The notes beneath the pieces are model-generated. The model did not search any database, had not been told where the DNA came from, and saw only the letters and a program-made list of their open reading frames with translations. 64,000 nucleotides of DNA. Source: an uncultured Planctomycetota bacterium. Its GTDB lineage: Bacteria; Planctomycetota; Planctomycetia; Isosphaerales; Isosphaeraceae. Both the position numbers and the translations under genes were made by a program. Positions 3,501-44,826 of the stretch are shown here, one piece after another. The stretch is taken from NCBI GenBank assembly GCA_963823665.1, contig CAWGMQ010000010.1, positions 1,920,001 through 1,984,000 on the forward strand, written 5' to 3'. How positions within the stretch are numbered: the first letter of the stretch is position 1; each line of letters starts with the position of its first letter.

Positions 3501-6500
3501 GGCTGCCGCCAGGTTGATGATCAGCGTGTCGGTCGCGCTGTCATAAGTGAGCTTGCCGGCCAGGTTGATGGACGTGTCGACCGGAGCCGCCGGGTTGCTC
3601 CCGAGATCGGTCAACATCACCGTGTTGGCGGTGATCGAGTTGGGGTCGAGCGGGCCACTGAACGTGATGTTGATTGACCACGGCGTGGCGTTGGCACCGG
3701 CGCTTCCACCGACGACGTAGAAGTTCTGCGGCGTCGAGCCCGATAGCGCGGTCTCCGTCACGCTCGTGACTTCCGGCGGATGCAGGTTGACATACTGATA
3801 CGCACCAATGTCGATGAACGGATTGCTGCCGTAGCCGACGCTTGGGCTGCCGATCTTCGGTGCGCGAATGTACCCGAGCAGATCGCGCTGGCCCGAGACC
3901 GGGGCGTAGTCGTAGGTGCCGGGAATCTGGCCAGGAGTGCTGTAACCGCTGGGGTCGGTGGTCAGCACCGGCTCCCACTGGTCGGGGAAGCTGAAGAATC
4001 CCGATCCAGGCAAGGTGAGGATCTGATTGGGAGACACCGCCCCGACGACACCGACGTAGCCGCCGGGATTGTCTCTTCCCGGCTCAGCGGGGGGCGTCAA
4101 TGAGGCCGGGTCGGTCCGGATTTGGGTGGCGATGCCGTCGTTTAGCGTGAGGGTCGTGGTCGGGTAGATTGCATTGACCGGAGGGGAGCGGCCCGATCTC
4201 GCTGCGAGCCTGGTCGATCGCCGGTGAGGTCGGCTCCAGCTCGAAATTGCCGTCCGCCGCATCCACGAATTGTGGATCAGCATAGATTGCGCCGAAGTTG
4301 CCGTCCCAGTCGCCGTCGGTGGTCGTGACGTTGAGGTTCGTGGCGTTGTTATAGTAGAGGTTGTACTGCTCCTGGCCCTCGCGTGCTTGTCCCTGGAGAT
4401 TGACGGCGATTTGCGTTGAGCCGTCGAAAATGTTGTTCATGGCCAGAACGGTGACGCTGGAGTTGGCGTTCGTCCCGTTAAATTGCGGCGCAAGGGTCTG
4501 GATGGCGAACGGGTCGTTGTAGAACGTGTTGTTCAGCAGGATTCCTTGATAGGCGGACTCGCCGGCCGTGTCGGCAGTGTTCTCGGAGTTGATCTCCACA
4601 CCGACGCCCGAGTTGGAGATCGTGTCGTTGTACATGTAGAGCCACGCAGGATCGCCGTCCAATGTGCCGCGTATGGGGATTCCGCCGGCGCTACGAATCA
4701 AGGCGGCGAGTGGCTGGGGATGCACGAAGACCGCGGCATCGGCGAACTCGTTGAGGTTGGAATCGGCGATCGTGAGAAACATGGCGGAGTTGAACTGGGT
4801 GGCGGGACCGGCATAGCCGGTCTTCTCCTGGAGCCAGTCGCCACTCCCGCCGGTGTCGACGATTCCGCTGCCCTGGAGCTCGATCCGGGTCATGTAGCTG
4901 ATGTCGGCGTTGCTGATGATAGCTTCCCTCCAACGGATCGGTGGGGTCGTACTCCGTGAGCGACAGCCCGCCGATGTAGATGTAGCCGCCGTCCCCCGCT
5001 GCAGGCGTCGTCAGACTCTGGCCGACATAGTTGGGGCCGCCTGAGGCCGCAATCACGGCCGCCTCCGGCAGACTGTTCAAGATGTCGTCCATCGCAATCC
5101 CGCGCACCGTCGTACCGACCGTATCGTCGCGGAGCGAGGTCATGATCACCGGCACCCGCTGCTGCCCGGTCGTCTGGTTGCCCGGAATTCCCAGGATCCG
5201 CAGCTCGGAGTAGGCACCTGGATCGACGAGCGGGCTCGGAGTCGGATCCACGCCGTCCTCGACTCCGAACGCAAACCCGGCGCCGGCGTCCTCTGACGCC
5301 CCTACCCCGGTCGACCCGAAGGTCGTCGACAGGTTGGCGGCACCTGCGTCGTGCGGTGTCGACTCGCTGAGCATCTTGACGATGACCGACTGGCCGGGGC
5401 TCGGAATCGTCGTGCCGTCTGCCAGCAGCGTCCCTGGCAGGGCGGACTTGAATCGTCAGGCAGACGACAGGGTTCGGAATCGGCCCATAAGCCGTCTGGC
5501 TGGGAACCGGAGCGTTCGTGCCCAGGAAGTTCCCGCCGAAGCCGGGGAAGTACGGTCCGGAGGCGATGATCGTACCCTCGAGGACGTATGTCAGGTCGGT
5601 CGCATCCCAGACCGTGCTCACGGACTGGTTCGCATAAGTCGTGCCGCCAGCTCCGTCAACCGGGCCGACATAGTTGTATCCCGACGCCGCGACGAACGGA
5701 TAACCACGATTCGTGATTACTAGCAGACCGTCAATGCCGTTGTCCTGCATCACGTTCCCACGGAAGAACGGATGCCCCGAGACGAGCGGGTCGAGTGGGT
5801 CACCCGCCAGCAGGCCGTTGGGCTCGATTTGCATCGCCGCGTCGAAGTTGTTGAAGAAGTTGTTGTTCGTGATGTAGACGTGGCTGCCCAGCGTCGGCAC
5901 CGCCGCCGGTGGCAGCGGGAAGTCCGTGTCCAGCGTGATGAACGCCAGCACCGACTGCGACGGGATCGTGAAGTTCGGCGTGTTGATCGCGCCGCCGCCG
6001 TACTCGAAAGTGGCGGCGTTGATCACCGCCGCCGCGCCACTCTGGATGCCGATGCCACCCCACATGCTGGGCCCAAGGGTCGGGGTCGTCGCCTCGCCCG
6101 TCACGTTGATCGGCGTCGGCACCAGCGTGCTCGTCGCCGTGGACGTGTCGTCGTAAATCGAGTCGAACACGACTTGCGGATCCGAGGCCGACTCGTCGAT
6201 GTTGGTGCCCGCGCCCACCGACCGGCGTGTATCCACCCGGCTGGTCGTTGGCCGTGAGTACGCACGAGATCCCACGTTCAGGCTCGAGCCCGGGTTCAGC
6301 ACGTCGAGTGCACTGCCTCTGTTGAACTCAACCAGCGAACCGGGCTGAATGTAGAGCCGGTCAGTGACCCACTGGGTCTGCCCGCCCGAGTTGTCGATGA
6401 ACTCTTGGCCGACGACCAGTTGTGCCAGCACGATGATCGGCAGAGGCTCGAAGAACGTGTAATTGAGCGATCCGCCGAGCGTGGAGGGATTGGTCGGATA

Positions 6501-34893: not shown

Positions 34894-36358
34894 TCACGCG
34901 TTGTACGATGACGAAGCGGTCATCCCGCCGCGCCCCGTCCAGTTCGTGTGGAAAAACTCCCCCCGGGGGCGGTCGACGCGTTCGTATTGATGGGCCCCGA
35001 AGTAGTCGCGCTGGGCTTGCAGCAGGTTCGCGGGTAGGGACGCGCAGCGGTAGCCGTCGAAATAGGAGAGCGCGGCCGTCATGGATGGCGCGGGAATCCC
35101 CCCGCCAGCCGCCGCCATCACCGTGCGCCGCCAGCCAAGCTGAGAGCGCTCGAGCTCGTCGCGAAAATACGGGTCGAGCATGAGGTTTGCCAGCTTCGTG
35201 TTCTGCTCGAACGCGGTCTTGATCTTGCCCAGGAACACGCTCCGGATGATGCATCCGCCGCGCCACATCAGTGCCACACCGCCGCGGTTGATCTCCCAGT
35301 TCGATTCCCTCGCCTGCGCGTCCATGAGCGCGAAACCCTGTGCGTAGGAGACCATCTTGCTGGCGTAAAGCGCCTGTTCAATGTCGTCGACAGACGCCCG
35401 AACCGCTTCTGGTCCGGAAAGCGTCGAGCCGTTGAGCAGCTTCGCCGCCGCCACTCGCTCCTCTTTCTGGGCCGAAAGGCAGCGTGCGAAGACCGCCTCG
35501 GCAATGAGCGTCAGCGGCACGCCCTGGTCCGCGGCCGAAACCACCGTCCACTTTCCCGTCCCTTTCTGGCCGGCGGCGTCGAGTATCAGGTCGACCATGG
35601 GCTTCTTTGTCTCGGGATCGATGTAGGCCAGGATATCGCGGGTGATCTCGATCAGGTAGCTGTCGAGCAGCGCCCTCGTTCCAGCGTGCGAAGACGTCAT
35701 GAATCTGGGCCGGCTCCATACCAAGCGACTGCCGCAGCAGGAAATAGGCCTCGCAGATGAGCTGCATGTCGCCATATTCGATGCCGTTGTGCACCATCTT
35801 GACGAAATGCCCCGCGCCCTCGGGCCCGACCCAGTCGCAGCAGGGTGTTCCATCCTCGACCTTGGCGGCAATCGCCTGAAAGATCGGCTTGACGTGCGGC
35901 CATGCCGCCGGATCGCCGCCGGGCATGATCGAAGGTCCCTTGAGCGCCCCCTCTTCGCCGCCGGACACGCCTGTTCCAATAAAATGCAGCCCCTTGGCCT
36001 TGAGCGCCTTGGTGCGCCGGGTCGAATCCGGGAAATGTGAATTGCCGCCGTCGATCAGGATGTCCCCAGGCGAAAGCAACGGGACGAACTCATCGATCAC
36101 CTGGTCCACCGCGTCGGCCTTGACCATGATCATGATCTTGCGAGGCGCCTTGAGCGCGGCGACCAGTTCCTGCGGCGATCGTGTGCCGACGATCTTCTTC
36201 CCCTTGGCTCGCCCCTCGACAAACGCGTCGACCCGAGAAGTCGTCCGGTTGAACACCGCGACGGTGAAACCGTGGCTCTCCATGTTCAGGACGAGGTTCT
36301 CACCCATCACCGCCAGGCCGACCAGCCCGATGTCGGCGGTTTGCGCACTGGATGCCAT
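34894..36358 (-). CDS. gnd: NADP-dependent 6-phosphogluconate dehydrogenase, decarboxylating; one frameshift near 35670
   Basis: IGLVGLAVMGENL, GVSGGEEGA, GHFVKMVHNGIEYGDMQLI, AGQKGTGKWT, WRGGCIIRS, QAQRDYFGAH. Confidence 0.97.
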
Positions 36359-36472
36359 GCTTTCGGCCCTCACTGGGTCATCGCTTGCCGGAATTGTCTC
36401 GATCGCGCAGATTGTACCAACCTGCGTACGACAATTCGACGATCCTCGGCCGGCAGCCTCGCTGTGCCCCGT

Positions 36473-37701: not shown

Positions 37702-39043
37702 TTGGCGAGCTCCGAGAAACCCAAGGAAGCGCAGAGCGTTCCACGAGATTTACTGCCGGTCATGCGCGCCTCGGGCGTGATTTCCGAGCGCCAGCTCGCG
37801 GAGATTCAGCGCCAAGATCCTGCACGGCGACTTTCCTCAGGATTCCGTCGAGCTGGCCGAGGCCTTGGTGCGCGACAAGATCATCACGCCCTTCCAGGCC
37901 CGGCGGTTCCTGTCGAATCGGCCCAATGGCTTGATCGTGGGCCGCTACGTGATCCTCGACCGGATCGGCTCCGGCTCGATGGGGCGAGTCTACAAGGCCC
38001 ATCACCCGATGATGGACCGCACCGTCGCACTCAAGATCATCGCCCCGGAAATCGCCGCCAACGAGCGGGTCGTCGCCCGGTTTCAGCGCGAGATGCGGCT
38101 CGTCGGCCGGCTCGATCATCCCAACGTTGTCCGCGCCTTTGATGCTGACCAAATTCATAAAATCTTATATATCGTAATGGAGTATGTGACTGGCCAGACA
38201 CTGGGCGAGCTTGTCAAGAAGAAGCCCCTTCCGCCCCTCGATATGGCCGATTTCGGGTTTCAAGCGGCCCTTGGCCTGGCGCATGCTCACGACCAGGGTA
38301 TCGTCCATCGCGACGTCAAGCCGTCCAACATCCTCTTGACCGAAGACCGCAAGATCAAGGTCCTCGACCTGGGCCTGGGCGTGCTCATGGAAGCCGACAA
38401 CGCCGCAACGTTCGCCACGGCCGACGGCATTGCGGTCGGAACCGTCGACTACATGTCTCCCGAGCAAGCCTGCGGCAGAGAAGTGGATGGCCGCAGCGAT
38501 CTGTACGGCCTGGGCTGCTCGATGTACTACCTCCTGACGGGCAATCTTCCGTTCCCCGGCAGCTCACCCATCGAGCGGCTCGGCAAGCGGATCAGCGGCC
38601 GCCATGTTCCGATCACGGAGCACCTCCCGGATCTTTCCCCGAATTTTGTAAAAGTGATCGACCGGCTGCTTGCCCCCAAGCCGCACGAGCGATTCGCAAC
38701 CGCCGCCGATGCGGCCGACGCCCTGCAGAGCCTGTTGAAGCCCAGGACCAGGCCGTCTCCCGCTCAGCAGGCGCAAGCACCGGCCCCCGCGAGCGCCGCG
38801 CCGGTTGCGGGTCCGCCCGATGCGAAACCAGCCATTGCCGCCAAGCCGCAGGCCGCTCCGGCCCCGGCCGACGGCCCGATGGTCGTGAAGATTCGGCCCA
38901 AGTATCCCTCCTGGTTCGAGCCCGCCGCCCGCCTCGCCGAAACCCGCCCAAAGTACGCGCTCGCGACCACGGTCTCGATTCTAGTGGTCGTCTTTACGGC
39001 AGGAATCGTTGCTGGGTTGATCTTGAAGGCTTTCTTGGGCTAA
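37702..39043 (+). CDS. Membrane-anchored Ser/Thr protein kinase; frameshift near 37810
   Basis: GGAGG followed by TTG at 37702; IGSGSMGRVY, HRDVKPSNILL, DLG, GTVDYMSPEQ; Pro/Ala linker and C-terminal TM. Confidence 0.9.
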
Positions 39044-40059
39044 TGGTGCGCCCCCGCGTGAACTGGCTCCGGCTCTACACTCTTCGCCGGAACATGCTCG
39101 ATCACCGCTCGAAGCGCATCGACCAGGTGCGGATACTTGAACACATACCCGAGCTCGAGCGCCTTCTTCGGCAAAACTCGCTGCCCCGTCGTGATCACGC
39201 TCGCCGCCTCACCCAGAACAAGCCGCAGCAGACCGTCCGGCGGTCCGAACGGCAGATAAACCCTCCAGGGCGTATAAGGCTTGCGTAAAACAGCCGAGAA
39301 CGTCCGTGCGAACTCAGAATTGCGCACCGGCTCAGGCGCCGTCCCGTTGAGTGGCCCCTTGGCCGCGCCGTTCTCAATCGCCAGCCGGAAAAGACCGACG
39401 ATGTCGTCGATGTGAATCCAGCTCATCCACTGATTCCCCTCGGCAATCAGCTTGCCTGCCGCACCAATCGGCGCTCCCGGCCCGATCTTGAAGATCGGCG
39501 TCATGATCTTGAGCGCGCCCCCGCCGGGAGCCAGCACGATTCCGGTCCGTAGCATCACCCGCCGGACACCCAGTCCCTCGAGCCCCGCCGAGGCTTCCTC
39601 GGCCTCCCGGCAGATCACGGCGAGCAGGTCCGAGCCGGACCCGGCCGACTCATCGAATTCCTGATCGCCCTGCGCGCCGTAAAAGCCGATGGCAGAACCG
39701 TGAATAAACACCGGCGGGCGCTCTCGCGCCTGCTTGATCGCGGCGGCCAGTTGCTCCGCGCTGTGCACGCGGCTGTCGCGCAGCTTGCGCTTGATCTCGG
39801 TGTTCCAGCGATTGGCGAAGATGTTGTGACCGGCAAGATTCACGACCGCATCGCAGCCGTCCAGCTCGTCCTGCCATCGCCCGGGCGCTACCGGGTCGCC
39901 TTGAACGATCCGGAAGGGCCACATTTCTCGACGGCGACGAATTAGATCCGCGTGTCGCGACAGGATGATCGGCTCATGCCCGTCTTCCTGAAGCGACTGC
40001 GCCAGACGCACTCCGATCAGCCCCGACCCGCCCGCAAGAAAAACGCGCAGCTTCGACAT
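39040..40059 (-). CDS. TIGR01777-family NAD-dependent epimerase-like protein (YfcH-like)
   Basis: VFLAGGSGLIG, VVNLAG, SAIGFYG, LRTGIVL..GGAL, QWMSWIHIDD, GQRVLP..ALELGY.F. Confidence 0.92.
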   Translation of the reverse strand: MSKLRVFLAGGSGLIGVRLAQSLQEDGHEPIILSRHADLIRRRREMWPFRIVQGDPVAPGRWQDELDGCDAVVNLAGHNIFANRWNTEIKRKLRDSRVHSAEQLAAAIKQARERPPVFIHGSAIGFYGAQGDQEFDESAGSGSDLLAVICREAEEASAGLEGLGVRRVMLRTGIVLAPGGGALKIMTPIFKIGPGAPIGAAGKLIAEGNQWMSWIHIDDIVGLFRLAIENGAAKGPLNGTAPEPVRNSEFARTFSAVLRKPYTPWRVYLPFGPPDGLLRLVLGEAASVITTGQRVLPKKALELGYVFKYPHLVDALRAVIEHVPAKSVEPEPVHAGAHH

Positions 40060-40306: not shown

Positions 40307-41200
40307 ATGACGACGCGCGTGAGCAAGTGGTTCGATCTGACCGATCTCGTGCCCGCTTACGAGCCGCGGATGCCGGTCGTGCTGGTCAATGGTCTCGCGG
40401 AGCAATCCGAGAGCTGGTTCGCCAACCGATCGGCGCTGTCACGACACTTCGACCTGAAGGTGCCCGAGATCCTGGTTTACGATGGCGATTCGCTCCATCG
40501 GCGGATCGAGTCCGGCGGCGAGATCAACGTCGAGTACCTTGCCGATCGCCTTTGCCTGTATCTGGACGAGTTTGTTCAACGATCGCCGAGCCATCTGGTG
40601 GCTTCGAGTCTCGGCTGCCAGGTCGCGCTTTCCGTCGCCGTACGGCGCCCGGAACACATTGCCAAGCTGGTGCTGATCGCCCCGTCCGGATTTCACGGAG
40701 GCGAGAGCCTGCCCATGATCGACGGCGTGCGCCGCAGCGCCACGGCGGGGCTGGTTCGCGCGGTCTTTCATGGCGGCCGGTTCGCAACCAAGGAGCTGGT
40801 TGCCGATGTGCACAGCAAGCTGCAGGATCGCCGATGGAAAAAGGGCGTTCTGCGCACGCTCAGGGGCACGGTCGGGAATTCCGTCGCTCCGCTCCTGCCG
40901 CTCGTTTCGCAGAATGTTCTCGTGATCTGGGGCGCCGAGGATCGAGTGCTCACGGATCTCCCCGGCGCGATTCTCGCCGGCGAGCGAATCCGCCGTGCGC
41001 GCCAGGTTGTCATTCCCAGGTGCGGCCACGCTCCTCAGATCGAGCGAGCCGGCCTGGTCAATCGGCTCATCTCCCAGTTCCTCCGCGACCAGCTCAAGTC
41101 GATTCCGCTCGATCTCGCGCCGCAGAGGTTCCTGTCGCGCATTGCCGAGCCTTCCGGCGCCGGCCGTTCGATCGAAGCACCTGCCCATTCTGTTTCATGA
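40307..41200 (+). CDS. Alpha/beta-hydrolase fold protein (possible acyltransferase)
   Basis: VLVNGL, nucleophile elbow ASSLG, WGAEDRV, CGHAPQIE; GGAGG RBS. Confidence 0.85.
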   Translation: MTTRVSKWFDLTDLVPAYEPRMPVVLVNGLAEQSESWFANRSALSRHFDLKVPEILVYDGDSLHRRIESGGEINVEYLADRLCLYLDEFVQRSPSHLVASSLGCQVALSVAVRRPEHIAKLVLIAPSGFHGGESLPMIDGVRRSATAGLVRAVFHGGRFATKELVADVHSKLQDRRWKKGVLRTLRGTVGNSVAPLLPLVSQNVLVIWGAEDRVLTDLPGAILAGERIRRARQVVIPRCGHAPQIERAGLVNRLISQFLRDQLKSIPLDLAPQRFLSRIAEPSGAGRSIEAPAHSVS

Positions 41201-41787
41201 ATGCTACAGTCCGCGATTTCACCCTGTTCCTGGGCAAGTTCTTGAGGCATGGAACGGCGATCGCCAGCATCGCCCCCAGCAGCCGCTGGCTCTCGCGCTT
41301 GACTGTGCGAAACGTTGAATGGGCCCGTGCCAGGGCGATCGTTGAGTTGGGCGCCGGCACAGGGCCGATCACACGCGTGATCGCCGAGCGGGCGCACCCC
41401 GAATGCCGTGTCCTGGTCGTCGAGCGCGACCCCGATTTCGCTCGCCTGCTCCGGGACCGGTTCGCTGCCTTGCCGAATTTTGAAATCATCAGCGAAGACG
41501 TCGCCGATTTGAGCGCGATCCTCCTCGACCGGGGAATCAGGTCGGTCGACCACGTCATATCGGGTCTGCCGGTTCCCTCGTTCCCACGCGTCTTGCAGCG
41601 ATCGCTGTTCCGGGCCGTCAGCCGTGTGCTCGGCCCGGAAGGAACGTTTAATCAGCTCACCGAGATCCCCTGGCTTTACCGCCGGCTTTACCAGCGGCAG
41701 TTCGAGGAAGTGCAGTTCGTGCTCGAGCCGCGCAACTTACCCCCGGCCGGCACTTATTTTTGCCGCCGGCCTCGCCCGCTCGAATAG
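41197..41787 (+). CDS. PmtA/OlsG-type SAM-dependent lipid N-methyltransferase
   Basis: IASIAPSSRWL, VELGAGTGPIT, VISGLP, RNLPPA; ATGA overlap with the upstream stop. Confidence 0.85.
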   Translation: MNATVRDFTLFLGKFLRHGTAIASIAPSSRWLSRLTVRNVEWARARAIVELGAGTGPITRVIAERAHPECRVLVVERDPDFARLLRDRFAALPNFEIISEDVADLSAILLDRGIRSVDHVISGLPVPSFPRVLQRSLFRAVSRVLGPEGTFNQLTEIPWLYRRLYQRQFEEVQFVLEPRNLPPAGTYFCRRPRPLE

Positions 41788-41802
41788 GCAAATCACGGGC
41801 AG

Positions 41803-43419
41803 ATGAACGCGCAGACGCAGAATCTGACTCAGGCTCCTTTGACCGATGCACCCGGGCGCAGGGCGCTTCCCGGCGCGTTCGAGCGCCGGCTCGTCAATGC
41901 CGGATTTCGCTTGACGAGTGCGCTCAGGCGTCGCGCACTGGAGCGTGCCGATCCCGTTCGAGCCCAGCAGATCGAACTGCGCCGGCTGTTGAAGAAGGCG
42001 CGAGCGACGAAGTTCGGCCGCGAGCATCGATTCGACAGAATCGATTCGGTGCCGGCGTTCCAGCGCGCGGTCCCGATCCGGACATACGAAGCGCTTTGGA
42101 ATGAGTTCTTGCGCGCAGCTACCCCGTCTTCGAGAACCTCACGTGGCCGGGCGCATTCCCTACATCGCGCTCTCCAGCGGCACGAGCCAGGGTCCGACCA
42201 AGTTCATTCCGGTTTCCTGGGAGATGCTGCGATCGAACCGGCGGGCGAGCCAGCACGATGCTCGCCTGGCACATCGGCTCCCGGCCGGGCTCGCGAGTCT
42301 TCGACGGCCGGATCTGCGTGCTGGGAGGCTCGACGAATCTTGAAAGCGTAGCTCCGGGCGTATTCCAGGGCGACCTGAGCGGAATCGCGGCCGTCGAGGT
42401 GCCGCGGCTGCTAAAGCCCTATGCGTTTCCGCCACTCGAGCTGGCACTCGAATCAGACTGGGACAAGAAGATCTCTCGACTCGCCGAGGCGGCCGTTCAT
42501 GAGCACATCACACTCCTCTCCGGCGTGCCGAGCTGGCTGATCGAGTTCCTGGAGCGCGTGCTCGATCACACCGGCAAGTCCCGGATCGTCGATGTCTGGC
42601 CGCAGCTCGAGCTGATCGTCCACGGCGGCGTGAAGTTTGATCCGTATCGCCAATCATTCCGGTCGCTGGTTGGCTCCGCCGACGTCGTGTTCCAGGAGGT
42701 CTATCCCAGCTCGGAAGGGTTCATCGCCTACGGCGACCCCGCCACGGGCCTGCTTCGACTGGTATTTGACCACGGCATCTTTTTTGAATTCATCCCGGTG
42801 GATGAGCTCGATTCGCCGCACCCTGTCCGGCACTGGCTCGGAACCGCCCAGCCGGGTGTAAATTACGCGATCGTCGTATCAACCTGCGCGGGCATGTGGG
42901 CCCATCTGATCGGCGACACCATTCGCTTCGAGTCGCTTGCCCCTCCGCTCCTCACGTTCACCGGACGCACCGGCAACTGGCTTTCAGCCTTTGGCGAGCA
43001 TCTCATCAACGAGGAGGTCGAGGAAGCAATCGCCCATTCCCTTCTGGTCACCGGGGCAGCCTTGCGCGACTGGCACATCGGGCCGGTGTTCCATTCCGCA
43101 GGAATGGGGCATCACCTCCTCGTTGTCGAGTTCGACGCCGAGCCGCACGATCCCGCCCGGTTCCGTGACGAGTTTGACGGGCAGCTCTGTCGCCGCAACG
43201 CCGACTACCAGGCCCATCGCACCGGCGGCGCAGGGCTGCCGCCCCCGGCGTTGATCATCGCCCGCCGTGGCGCGTTTCGAAGGCTGGATGCGCTCGCGAG
43301 GCAAGCTCGGCGGCCAGCATAAGGTTCCCAGAATGGATAGCGGCGGCGCCTTGACGGGCGAGCTCATTCAGTTCTTGCGCGCGACGGCCAACGTCCGCGT
43401 GGAGCTATCGGAAGTCTGA
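41803..43419 (+). CDS. GH3-family acyl-acid amido synthetase; several frameshifts
   Basis: ATKFGREH.F, ALSSGTSQGPTKFIP, YPSSEG, FFEFIP, LIGDTIRF, FGEH, GQHKVPR across ORFs 41803, 42101, 42258 and a tail ending at TGA 43417-19. Confidence 0.9.
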
Positions 43420-43449
43420 GGCCAGACACCAGCCAGCAATTCAATCCGA

Positions 43450-43704
43450 TCAGGCCGCAGCTCGCTTCTTTTCAACAAGCGCGGCAATCTGGCCGATGGA
43501 ATCGAGGTGCTCGACGCCCGCTTCGTACGCCTCAACCCTGATGTGGAAATGTTCCTCGAGAAAGACCACCAGCTTCAGGGTGCGTATCGAGTCGAGAATG
43601 CCTCCGGTGATGAGCGGTGTGCCCTCCGTGAGCTCACCAGGATCTTCACCGGGAAGGAATTCCTGCAAGATGAAATGATGCACGACCTTCGCCGTTTCTT
43701 CCAT
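43450..43704 (-). CDS. Acyl/peptidyl carrier protein
   Basis: LITGGILDSIRTLKLVVFLEEHF with the phosphopantetheine Ser in LDS; 84 aa, acidic. Confidence 0.9.
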   Translation of the reverse strand: MEETAKVVHHFILQEFLPGEDPGELTEGTPLITGGILDSIRTLKLVVFLEEHFHIRVEAYEAGVEHLDSIGQIAALVEKKRAAA

Positions 43705-44088: not shown

Positions 44089-44826
44089 ATGCTGATGACA
44101 GCAAGGATGGTCATTCACCCTTGCCGCCCTCTCTTACTGGCTGCCGCCCTGGCGCTCGTGGCGTCAGCGGGTTGTCACGGATTCGCTCGCCAGCATGAAG
44201 CCAACAAGATCCCCCAGCTTGGAACGATTGATCCCAGCCAGCCGGCCGAGCTGCGAAAGGTGTCGCAGTCGCCTTACGTGATCGAGCCGCCGGACGAGCT
44301 GGAGATTTCCACCAAGCCGCCTCTGCCGACGTCGATGACAACACCCTTCATCGTTCGCGGCGATGGCTTCGTCGATCTTGGCCTCTTCGGTGAGGCCTTC
44401 GTCTACGGCTTGACGCTGTCGGAAGCCGAGGAACGGATCGCCGTCCAGTTGAACGACGCGGCCCGAAGACTGACTCCAGAGGTGAAGGACAAGTACCAGG
44501 TTGCGGTGCGCCTGGCGAACAATCAAAGCAAGTACTATTACGTGCTGGGAACGGTGGGCAACCCCGGCCGATTCAAGTCGGGCGGCAACGACACCGTTCT
44601 GGACGCCATCTTGCAAGCCGGCTTGAAACCGAACAGCCTCCCCGAAAAGGCCTACCTCGTGCGCCCGCATCCCCCCGGCGGCGAGGACCAGGTCTACAAG
44701 GTTGATTGGGTCGGCATCAAAGACCGCGGCGACACCCTGACAAACTACCAGCTTTTCCCGGGCGACCGAGTGGTCGTTCCAGGCACCAAGCCGCCGGGGT
44801 TGATCCGTAGCTTGCTCGGCAACTGA
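44089..44826 (+). CDS. Polysaccharide export (Wza/Poly_export-SLBB) lipoprotein
   Basis: Lipobox SAGC; YVIEPPDEL, VRGDGFVDLG, YYVLG.V..PG, TVLDAI, TNYQLFPGDRV. Confidence 0.9.
   Translation: MLMTARMVIHPCRPLLLAAALALVASAGCHGFARQHEANKIPQLGTIDPSQPAELRKVSQSPYVIEPPDELEISTKPPLPTSMTTPFIVRGDGFVDLGLFGEAFVYGLTLSEAEERIAVQLNDAARRLTPEVKDKYQVAVRLANNQSKYYYVLGTVGNPGRFKSGGNDTVLDAILQAGLKPNSLPEKAYLVRPHPPGGEDQVYKVDWVGIKDRGDTLTNYQLFPGDRVVVPGTKPPGLIRSLLGN

What the first reader, a model, noticed from the sequence alone, without database searches (positions are those of the whole stretch)
40307..43704. Candidate GH3-based aminolipid pathway: alpha/beta hydrolase + OlsG/PmtA-type N-methyltransferase + GH3 amido synthetase, facing a carrier protein
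Seen: a tight three-gene operon (ATGA overlap at 41197-41200, then a 15-nt gap) whose end converges 30 nt from an ACP gene. Established: GH3 enzymes adenylate carboxylic acids and form amides with amino acids; OlsG (Sinac_1600) of Singulisphaera acidiphila is a PmtA-like enzyme that N-methylates ornithine lipids; the known ornithine-lipid synthases are OlsB/OlsA and OlsF. Inference: GH3 makes the N-acyl-amino acid (the OlsB step, from an ATP-activated fatty acid), the hydrolase with an atypical ASSLG elbow adds the ester-linked second chain, and the methyltransferase methylates the headgroup. That would be a self-contained, OlsB/OlsF-independent route to methylated ornithine lipids and would give a bacterial GH3 a function. 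I recall olsG having similar neighbours in S. acidiphila, but this needs checking, and the pathway may already be partly described.
Basis: partly seen in the sequence, partly recalled or inferred. Interest (0 to 1): 0.82.

Follow-up and report, generated by a model that had tools for sequence, protein, structure and literature searches.

The report
Known planctomycete ornithine-lipid operon (olsI-olsG-olsH)
These three genes match, in order and sequence, a pathway published in 2025 for a related planctomycete bacterium, so this organism likely makes methylated, phosphorus-free ornithine membrane lipids by an already known route; the finding is ordinary.

Summary
The operon is olsI-olsG-olsH, the GH3-dependent ornithine-lipid pathway shown biochemically and by knockout in Singulisphaera acidiphila (PMC12493201, 2025).

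NCBIfam names all four genes: OlsI 395 bits (cut-off 385), OlsG 332 (350, just below; PmtA only 50), OlsH in pieces, carrier protein 142 (130). olsH is broken by four single-base indels. Near-identical short-read contigs lack them, and correcting them gives one 538-aa frame with the published motif spacing and the essential serine, so they are most likely assembly errors. The triplet is conserved in 25 of 30 named loci.

Two corrections. The ASSLG elbow is a minority variant (5 of 27; 22 have GSSLG). The facing carrier protein is probably not a required part: 31 of 63 OlsI-bearing genomes lack it, and its usual same-strand neighbour is a phosphodiesterase gene. OlsI's acyl donor is still unknown.

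The scan's earlier notes (8 listed) cover other GH3 systems, not this triplet.

The parts
40307..41200 (+). olsI: alpha/beta-hydrolase-fold O-acyltransferase, 297 aa; predicted triad Ser101 (A-S-S-L-G elbow), Asp212, His241
   Evidence: NF052614.1 OlsI 395 bits, cut-off 385; Pfam Abhydrolase_1/6. Among 27 orthologues the SSLG core and CGHAPQIE are in all 27, and the Asp is in all 21 rows displayed. The triad role is inferred from the fold.
41197..41787 (+). olsG orthologue: SAM-dependent ornithine-lipid N-methyltransferase, 196 aa; ATGA overlap with olsI
   Evidence: NF041658.1 OlsG 332.1 bits (cut-off 350, not reached) against PmtA NF045881.1 50.3 bits; 64-70% identical to six orthologues that pass the cut-off; the only strong OlsG/PmtA-like match in the genome
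41803..43419 (+). olsH: GH3-family ATP-dependent N-acyl-ornithine synthetase, 538 aa once four single-base indels (near 42116, 42148, 42246, 43275; probable assembly errors) are accounted for
   Evidence: NF052613.1 pieces 86.7 and 559.6 bits, further pieces; the four indels are absent from near-identical contigs of run X1; one open frame only when all four are applied; motif spacing 175/64 as published, Ser126 equivalent to the essential S115; 837 bits on a local profile that tracks NCBIfam scores
43450..43704 (-). Stand-alone acyl carrier protein, 84 aa (GILDSI motif), convergent with olsH; a linked neighbour, probably not a required part of the pathway
   Evidence: NF052616.1 'ACP_for_OlsHI' 142.2 bits, cut-off 130; single copy in the genome; distribution and neighbours

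Best explanation
The three genes are the orthologues of the published olsI-olsG-olsH operon and likely make N-methylated ornithine lipid in three steps. Step 1: OlsH would activate a free fatty acid with ATP and Mg2+ and join it to the alpha-amine of ornithine. Step 2: OlsI would esterify a second fatty acid onto the 3-hydroxyl of the first, from a donor that is still unidentified, likely through a Ser101 acyl-enzyme. Step 3: OlsG would methylate the ornithine delta-amine up to three times with SAM. The three activities are shown for the S. acidiphila enzymes and inferred here by orthology; the Ser-Asp-His mechanism is inferred from the fold. The frameshifts in olsH are most likely assembly errors, and the convergent carrier-protein gene is most likely a neighbour rather than an obligatory part.
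For: NCBIfam assigns the three ORFs to OlsI, OlsG and OlsH by wide margins over the next family: 395 against 76 bits, 332 against 50, and OlsH the only hit. Gene order equals Sinac_1601-1600-1599. The paper shows in-vitro lyso-OL and OL synthesis and loss of trimethyl-OL in an olsH deletion. The three nucleotide-binding motifs have the published spacing 175/64, each offset by 11 residues, with the essential Ser kept. The restored OlsH scores 837 bits on a local profile on which four held-out orthologues score within 18 bits of their NCBIfam scores; the NCBIfam cut-off is 620. The triplet is conserved. No OlsB/OlsF candidate was found in the genome: the only PF13444 match, 1 at 24.8 bits, is a 219-aa FeeM-like protein with no NCBIfam name. 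All four indels are contradicted by contigs with 0-1 substitutions, and the 6-phosphogluconate dehydrogenase gene nearby is also split by a frameshift.
Against: OlsG misses its curated cut-off (332 < 350), and OlsH as assembled misses its own (580 < 620). There are no lipid or expression data for this organism. Each indel correction rests on one X1 contig at depth 2.7-4.4 (one is also seen in X5), and X1 may be the source sample. I could not compare directly with the S. acidiphila sequences, only with family models, published motifs and orthologues. The genome is 91.9% complete, so olsB/olsF are 'not found', not absent. The amino-acid specificity of this OlsH is untested.
Confidence: 0.93

Rival explanations
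1. The carrier protein is a fourth, dedicated member of the pathway in this family: it carries the acyl group that OlsI transfers (the paper's unknown donor X).
For: NCBIfam names it 'ornithine lipid biosynthesis acyl carrier protein'. It lies within 10 kb of olsI in 21 of the 32 genomes that have both (coordinates) and in 17 of 25 named triplet loci. The paper leaves the donor open: 'acyl-CoA or acyl-ACP'.
Against: It is on the opposite strand, so it cannot share the operon's transcript. In 151 genomes at least 90% complete, OlsI is found in 63 and the ACP in 37; 31 have OlsI without it (family f5: OlsI 25 of 31, ACP 0 of 31) and 5 have it without OlsI. In 17 of 24 family loci a PF01663 phosphodiesterase gene lies directly upstream on its strand. 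OlsH plus OlsI made OL in E. coli extract without it.
Confidence: 0.2
2. olsH is a true pseudogene in this strain and the pathway is dead.
For: The assembled gene is broken in four places and the longest clean frame is 354 aa.
Against: All four breaks are single-base indels absent from near-identical contigs. No in-frame stop remains after correction. olsI and olsG are intact, the same-genus orthologue is intact at 82% identity, and a housekeeping gene 6 kb away shows the same kind of break.
Confidence: 0.04
3. The methyltransferase acts here mainly as a PmtA-type phosphatidylethanolamine methyltransferase making phosphatidylcholine, and any ornithine lipid stays unmethylated.
For: It is below the OlsG cut-off. 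It is the only PmtA/OlsG-like gene found in the genome. OlsG itself methylates PE in E. coli (review PMC12971839, passages).
Against: It scores 332 bits on OlsG against 50 on PmtA. Its position between olsI and olsH is fixed. Only 8 of 41 genomes pass the OlsG cut-off although 26 carry this gene at the operon, so the cut-off is strict. Dual activity is compatible with the best explanation.
Confidence: 0.05

Closest known systems
OlsH/OlsI/OlsG ornithine-lipid pathway of Singulisphaera acidiphila (Sinac_1599/1601/1600; Rivera-Najera et al. 2025, PMC12493201; review PMC12971839)
   Same: Same three families, order and strand; same GH3 motif spacing and essential serine; no OlsB/OlsF found; a related planctomycete.
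   Different: Minor only. Motif I is SSGTSQGPTK against TSGTTQGATK; motif II is VYPSSE against TYPCSE; the elbow is ASSLG against the commoner GSSLG; olsI and olsG overlap by ATGA; OlsH is 538 against 526 aa; the assembled olsH carries four indels. The paper does not mention the neighbouring ACP gene.
OlsB/OlsA and OlsF ornithine-lipid synthases
   Same: Same end product (acyloxyacyl ornithine lipid).
   Different: Unrelated enzymes; OlsB and OlsA draw both acyl chains from AcpP, whereas OlsH uses free fatty acid and ATP.
PmtA phospholipid N-methyltransferase (NF045881)
   Same: Related SAM-dependent N-methyltransferase; OlsG can also methylate PE.
   Different: The window protein scores 50 bits on PmtA (cut-off 250) against 332 on OlsG.
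Plant GH3 acyl-acid amido synthetases (JAR1/AtGH3.11)
   Same: Adenylation followed by amide formation; three nucleotide-binding motifs; Pfam GH3, GH3_M and GH3_C.
   Different: The substrates are a fatty acid and ornithine rather than a hormone; the paper reports 21% identity over 280 aa for OlsH against JAR1.

Membership tests
OlsHI(G) pathway operon | olsI, olsG and olsH in one operon, olsG in the middle | tested here: met
   matches Sinac_1601-1600-1599
OlsHI(G) pathway operon | No OlsB or OlsF in the genome | tested here: inconclusive
   One weak PF13444 match, a 219-aa FeeM-like protein without an NCBIfam name; genome 91.9% complete
OlsHI(G) pathway operon | Makes lyso-OL, OL and methylated OL | not testable with these tools
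   Needs enzyme assay or lipidomics; shown only for S. acidiphila
OlsH (NF052613) | Three GH3 nucleotide-binding motifs with Ser115 equivalent | tested here: met
   Motifs at 125, 300 and 364, spacing 175/64 as published; Ser126 = S115, Ser304 = S293
OlsH (NF052613) | Score of at least 620 bits for the whole protein | tested here: inconclusive
   As assembled, the best piece scores 579.6. The frame-restored protein could not be scored on the NCBIfam model; it scores 837 on a local profile that reproduces NCBIfam scores of 4 held-out proteins within 18 bits.
OlsI (NF052614) | Score of at least 385 bits | tested here: met
   395 bits
OlsI (NF052614) | Alpha/beta-hydrolase fold with conserved Ser-Asp-His | tested here: met
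   Pfam PF00561/PF12697; Ser101, Asp212 and His241 conserved; catalytic role not tested
OlsG equivalog (NF041658) | Score of at least 350 bits | tested here: not met
   332.1 bits; filed therefore as an OlsG orthologue that works like OlsG, not as a formal member of the model. Only 8 of 41 genomes pass.
OlsG equivalog (NF041658) | Position between olsI and olsH; SAM-binding motif | tested here: met
   VELGAGTG at residue 49, identical in 26 of 39 orthologues; position
PmtA (NF045881) | Score of at least 250 bits | tested here: not met
   50.3 bits
ACP_for_OlsHI (NF052616) | Score of at least 130 bits | tested here: met
   142.2 bits
ACP_for_OlsHI (NF052616) | Co-occurs with OlsH/OlsI, as its name implies | tested here: not met
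   31 of 63 OlsI genomes lack it and 5 of 37 ACP genomes lack OlsI; the link holds within family f1 only

The most novel reading that the evidence does not exclude
The convergent carrier protein is the missing acyl donor X of OlsI in this family, making a four-gene ornithine-lipid system with a private ACP. This would close the one open step of the published pathway and might explain how a hydroxylated chain is handled although OlsH prefers non-hydroxylated fatty acids in vitro.
Probability: 0.2. Interest if true: 0.3.

Novelty: already known. Interest (0 to 1): 0.1.

Why it matters
The finding adds one more uncultured planctomycete to those predicted to make methylated ornithine lipids; the pathway itself was settled in 2025. 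Two by-products have modest value. The distribution data question the NCBIfam label that ties the carrier protein to OlsHI and point to a phosphodiesterase gene as its usual partner. A second, more widespread GH3 family with its own hydrolase elsewhere in the genome has no OlsH-level match and is the better lead.

Tried and rejected
- Direct comparison with the S. acidiphila proteins: no named record came back among the 30 loci, so I used NCBIfam models, the published motifs and orthologues. One unnamed locus (L007) carries all three published motifs letter for letter and is 61% identical to the window's OlsH.
- The 2015 OlsG paper is not held in the library; what I say of it comes from PMC12493201, PMC12971839 and PMC5352709.
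- Expression: no RNA holder listed; no conclusion drawn.
- No contig spans the whole stretch; parts without cover are not interpreted.
- Promoter and terminator scan: 0 promoter-like sites and 2 terminator-like sites against 3.0 expected by chance; uninformative.
- 'Atypical elbow implies acyltransferase': rejected.
- The PF13444 match as OlsB: rejected as FeeM-like and next to a heme-oxygenase-like gene.
- The second GH3 as an OlsH duplicate: rejected (24% identity, about 90 bits).
- No structure or complex prediction was run; it would not change the verdict.
- Literature: three searches listed no paper assigning the neighbouring ACP to this pathway. The JBC main text and supplement have no word hit for 'Sinac_1598'/'1598', and the supplement none for 'ACP' or 'carrier'. 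Figures were not seen, including Fig. 1A of the gene context.

Full report
Observation. The window lies on contig C10 of a 16.5-Mb, 12-contig assembly, 91.9% complete. The named relatives of the GH3 gene are mostly Isosphaeraceae or other Planctomycetota records, so the organism is inferred to be an Isosphaeraceae-like planctomycete.

Identity of the genes. NCBIfam gives OlsI NF052614 395 bits (cut-off 385; next family 76), OlsG NF041658 332.1 bits (cut-off 350; PmtA 50.3), OlsH NF052613 as the only hit for both GH3 pieces (86.7 and 559.6 bits; cut-off 620), and NF052616 'ACP_for_OlsHI' 142.2 bits (cut-off 130). Pfam agrees on the folds of the three enzymes and has no hit for the ACP at E 0.001.

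What is published. The first paper search returned Rivera-Najera et al. 2025, PMC12493201. I read parts 1-5 of 9 (abstract, results, discussion, first methods), section 21, term passages and a term search of the supplement; figures were not seen. In S. acidiphila olsG (Sinac_1600) is flanked by olsI (Sinac_1601) and olsH (Sinac_1599). OlsH makes N-acyl-ornithine from free fatty acid, ornithine, ATP and Mg2+, prefers non-hydroxylated fatty acids and needs Ser115. OlsH plus OlsI make ornithine lipid in E. coli extract. An olsH deletion loses trimethyl-OL. The acyl donor of OlsI is drawn as 'X', unknown. The authors state that planctomycete homologues always have olsH and olsI in one operon. The 2026 review PMC12971839 (passages) repeats this and notes that OlsG also methylates phosphatidylethanolamine in E. 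coli. PMC5352709 (passages) reports olsG homologues in Isosphaeraceae and Gemmataceae.

The frameshifts. The OlsH model matches in alternating frames with breaks near profile positions 92-96, 139-140 and 477-480. Contigs of run X1 that differ from the window by 0-1 substitutions over 183-337 bases show four single-base indels: one base more after 42116 and after 42148, one fewer at 42246 and at 43275; a more distant X5 contig agrees on the last. Each rests on one contig at depth 2.7-4.4, and X1 may be the source sample. Applying all four gives one 538-codon frame without an internal stop; leaving out any one gives an early stop. The three motifs then fall at 125, 300 and 364, with spacing 175/64 exactly as published (114, 289, 353), and Ser126 matches the essential Ser115. 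On a local profile from 13 over-cut-off orthologues the restored protein scores 837 bits; four held-out proteins score within 18 bits of their NCBIfam values. The 6-phosphogluconate dehydrogenase gene at 34894-36373 is split the same way, and several few-contig relatives also show split olsH. I read the indels as assembly errors.

Conservation. Of 41 genomes, OlsH passes its cut-off in 21, OlsI matches in 25 (21 over cut-off), and OlsG matches in 33 at E 1e-10, of which 8 pass. The three genes lie in the same order in 22 of 25 close-OlsH loci from unnamed relatives (three cut by contig ends) and 25 of 30 named loci; one exception is a 1.6-kb contig and four are stand-alone olsH copies. These sets share genomes and are not summed; the 55 loci also hold duplicates, and only those with a long single-frame match were counted (27 for OlsI, 39 for OlsG, 41 for OlsH). 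The elbow is VGSSLG or IGSSLG in 22 of 27 OlsI orthologues and VASSLG in 5, so the window's form is a minor variant and no sign of special chemistry.

Alternatives in the genome. A PF13444 search gave one weak match, a 219-aa FeeM-like protein with no NCBIfam name; no OlsB or OlsF candidate was found. The window's methyltransferase is the only strong OlsG- or PmtA-like match, so it may also serve phosphatidylcholine synthesis (inference).

The carrier protein. For a role in the pathway: the NCBIfam name, and linkage within 10 kb of olsI in 21 of 32 genomes holding both. Against: it faces the operon from the other strand. Among 151 genomes at least 90% complete, 63 have OlsI (E at most 1e-60) and 37 the ACP (E at most 1e-25); 31 have OlsI alone, including 25 of 31 in family f5, and 5 have the ACP alone. 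At E 0.001 three f5 genomes still gave no match. In 17 of 24 family loci a PF01663 phosphodiesterase gene sits directly upstream on the ACP's strand; in the other 7, this window included, the ACP backs onto a polysaccharide-export gene. These genomes are kin and a sample, so the counts are descriptive. I put the dedicated-donor reading at about 20%.

Mechanism. Shown in S. acidiphila and inferred here: fatty acid + ATP gives acyl-AMP, then N-acyl-ornithine (OlsH); O-acylation gives ornithine lipid (OlsI); SAM-dependent methylation of the delta-amine gives mono- to trimethyl-OL (OlsG). Inferred from the fold only: a Ser101-Asp212-His241 acyl-enzyme mechanism for OlsI; the paper has no hit for 'catalytic triad'. 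Open: OlsI's donor, and how the 3-hydroxy group arises given OlsH's in-vitro preference.

Verdict. Already known; interest 0.1. The scan's notes hold nothing near this place and 8 notes on other GH3 systems by words; none changed the verdict.

Noticed in passing
L006:275-3177 (G000 contig C10, about 1.62 Mb; outside the window): A second GH3 gene (563 aa, 24% identical to OlsH, 91 bits on the OlsH model) directly after an unrelated alpha/beta hydrolase. The GH3 matches in 37 of 41 genomes, more than OlsH does, and the hydrolase is adjacent in 21 of 30 loci. It likely makes another N-acyl conjugate; product unknown.
   Followed up: partly
window 43450-43704; L042:6203-8108 and L070-L092: The carrier protein's usual same-strand upstream partner is a PF01663 phosphodiesterase gene (17 of 24 family loci). 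It is missing at this spot here; the genome's best homologue (43% identical) lies on another contig. The NCBIfam label 'ACP_for_OlsHI' may reflect position rather than function.
   Followed up: partly
L053, L054, L056, L060 (match near 4200-6150): Stand-alone olsH copies, 56-60% identical to the window's, with no olsI or olsG within 4-5 kb upstream; L053 and L056 come from assemblies that also hold a full operon (L042, L058).
   Followed up: no
window 39040-40056 (-) and 44089-44826 (+): Conserved flanks: a TIGR01777 epimerase/oxidoreductase divergent from olsI (20 of 25 named triplet loci) and a polysaccharide-export (Wza-like) gene behind the ACP. No link to the lipid pathway was tested.
   Followed up: partly
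window 34894-36373 (-): 6-phosphogluconate dehydrogenase split over two frames (Pfam 6PGD positions 1-48 and 48-290); probably another assembly indel.
   Followed up: partly
L066:716-2103: A heme-oxygenase-like (PF14518) gene followed by a FeeM-like N-acyltransferase gene; a possible separate N-acyl amino acid pathway.
   Followed up: no
G013, G024, G074, G093: Four same-family genomes (93-99% complete) in which OlsI was not found while the ACP was; G013 and G024 also gave no OlsG or close OlsH match, suggesting loss of the pathway.
   Followed up: no
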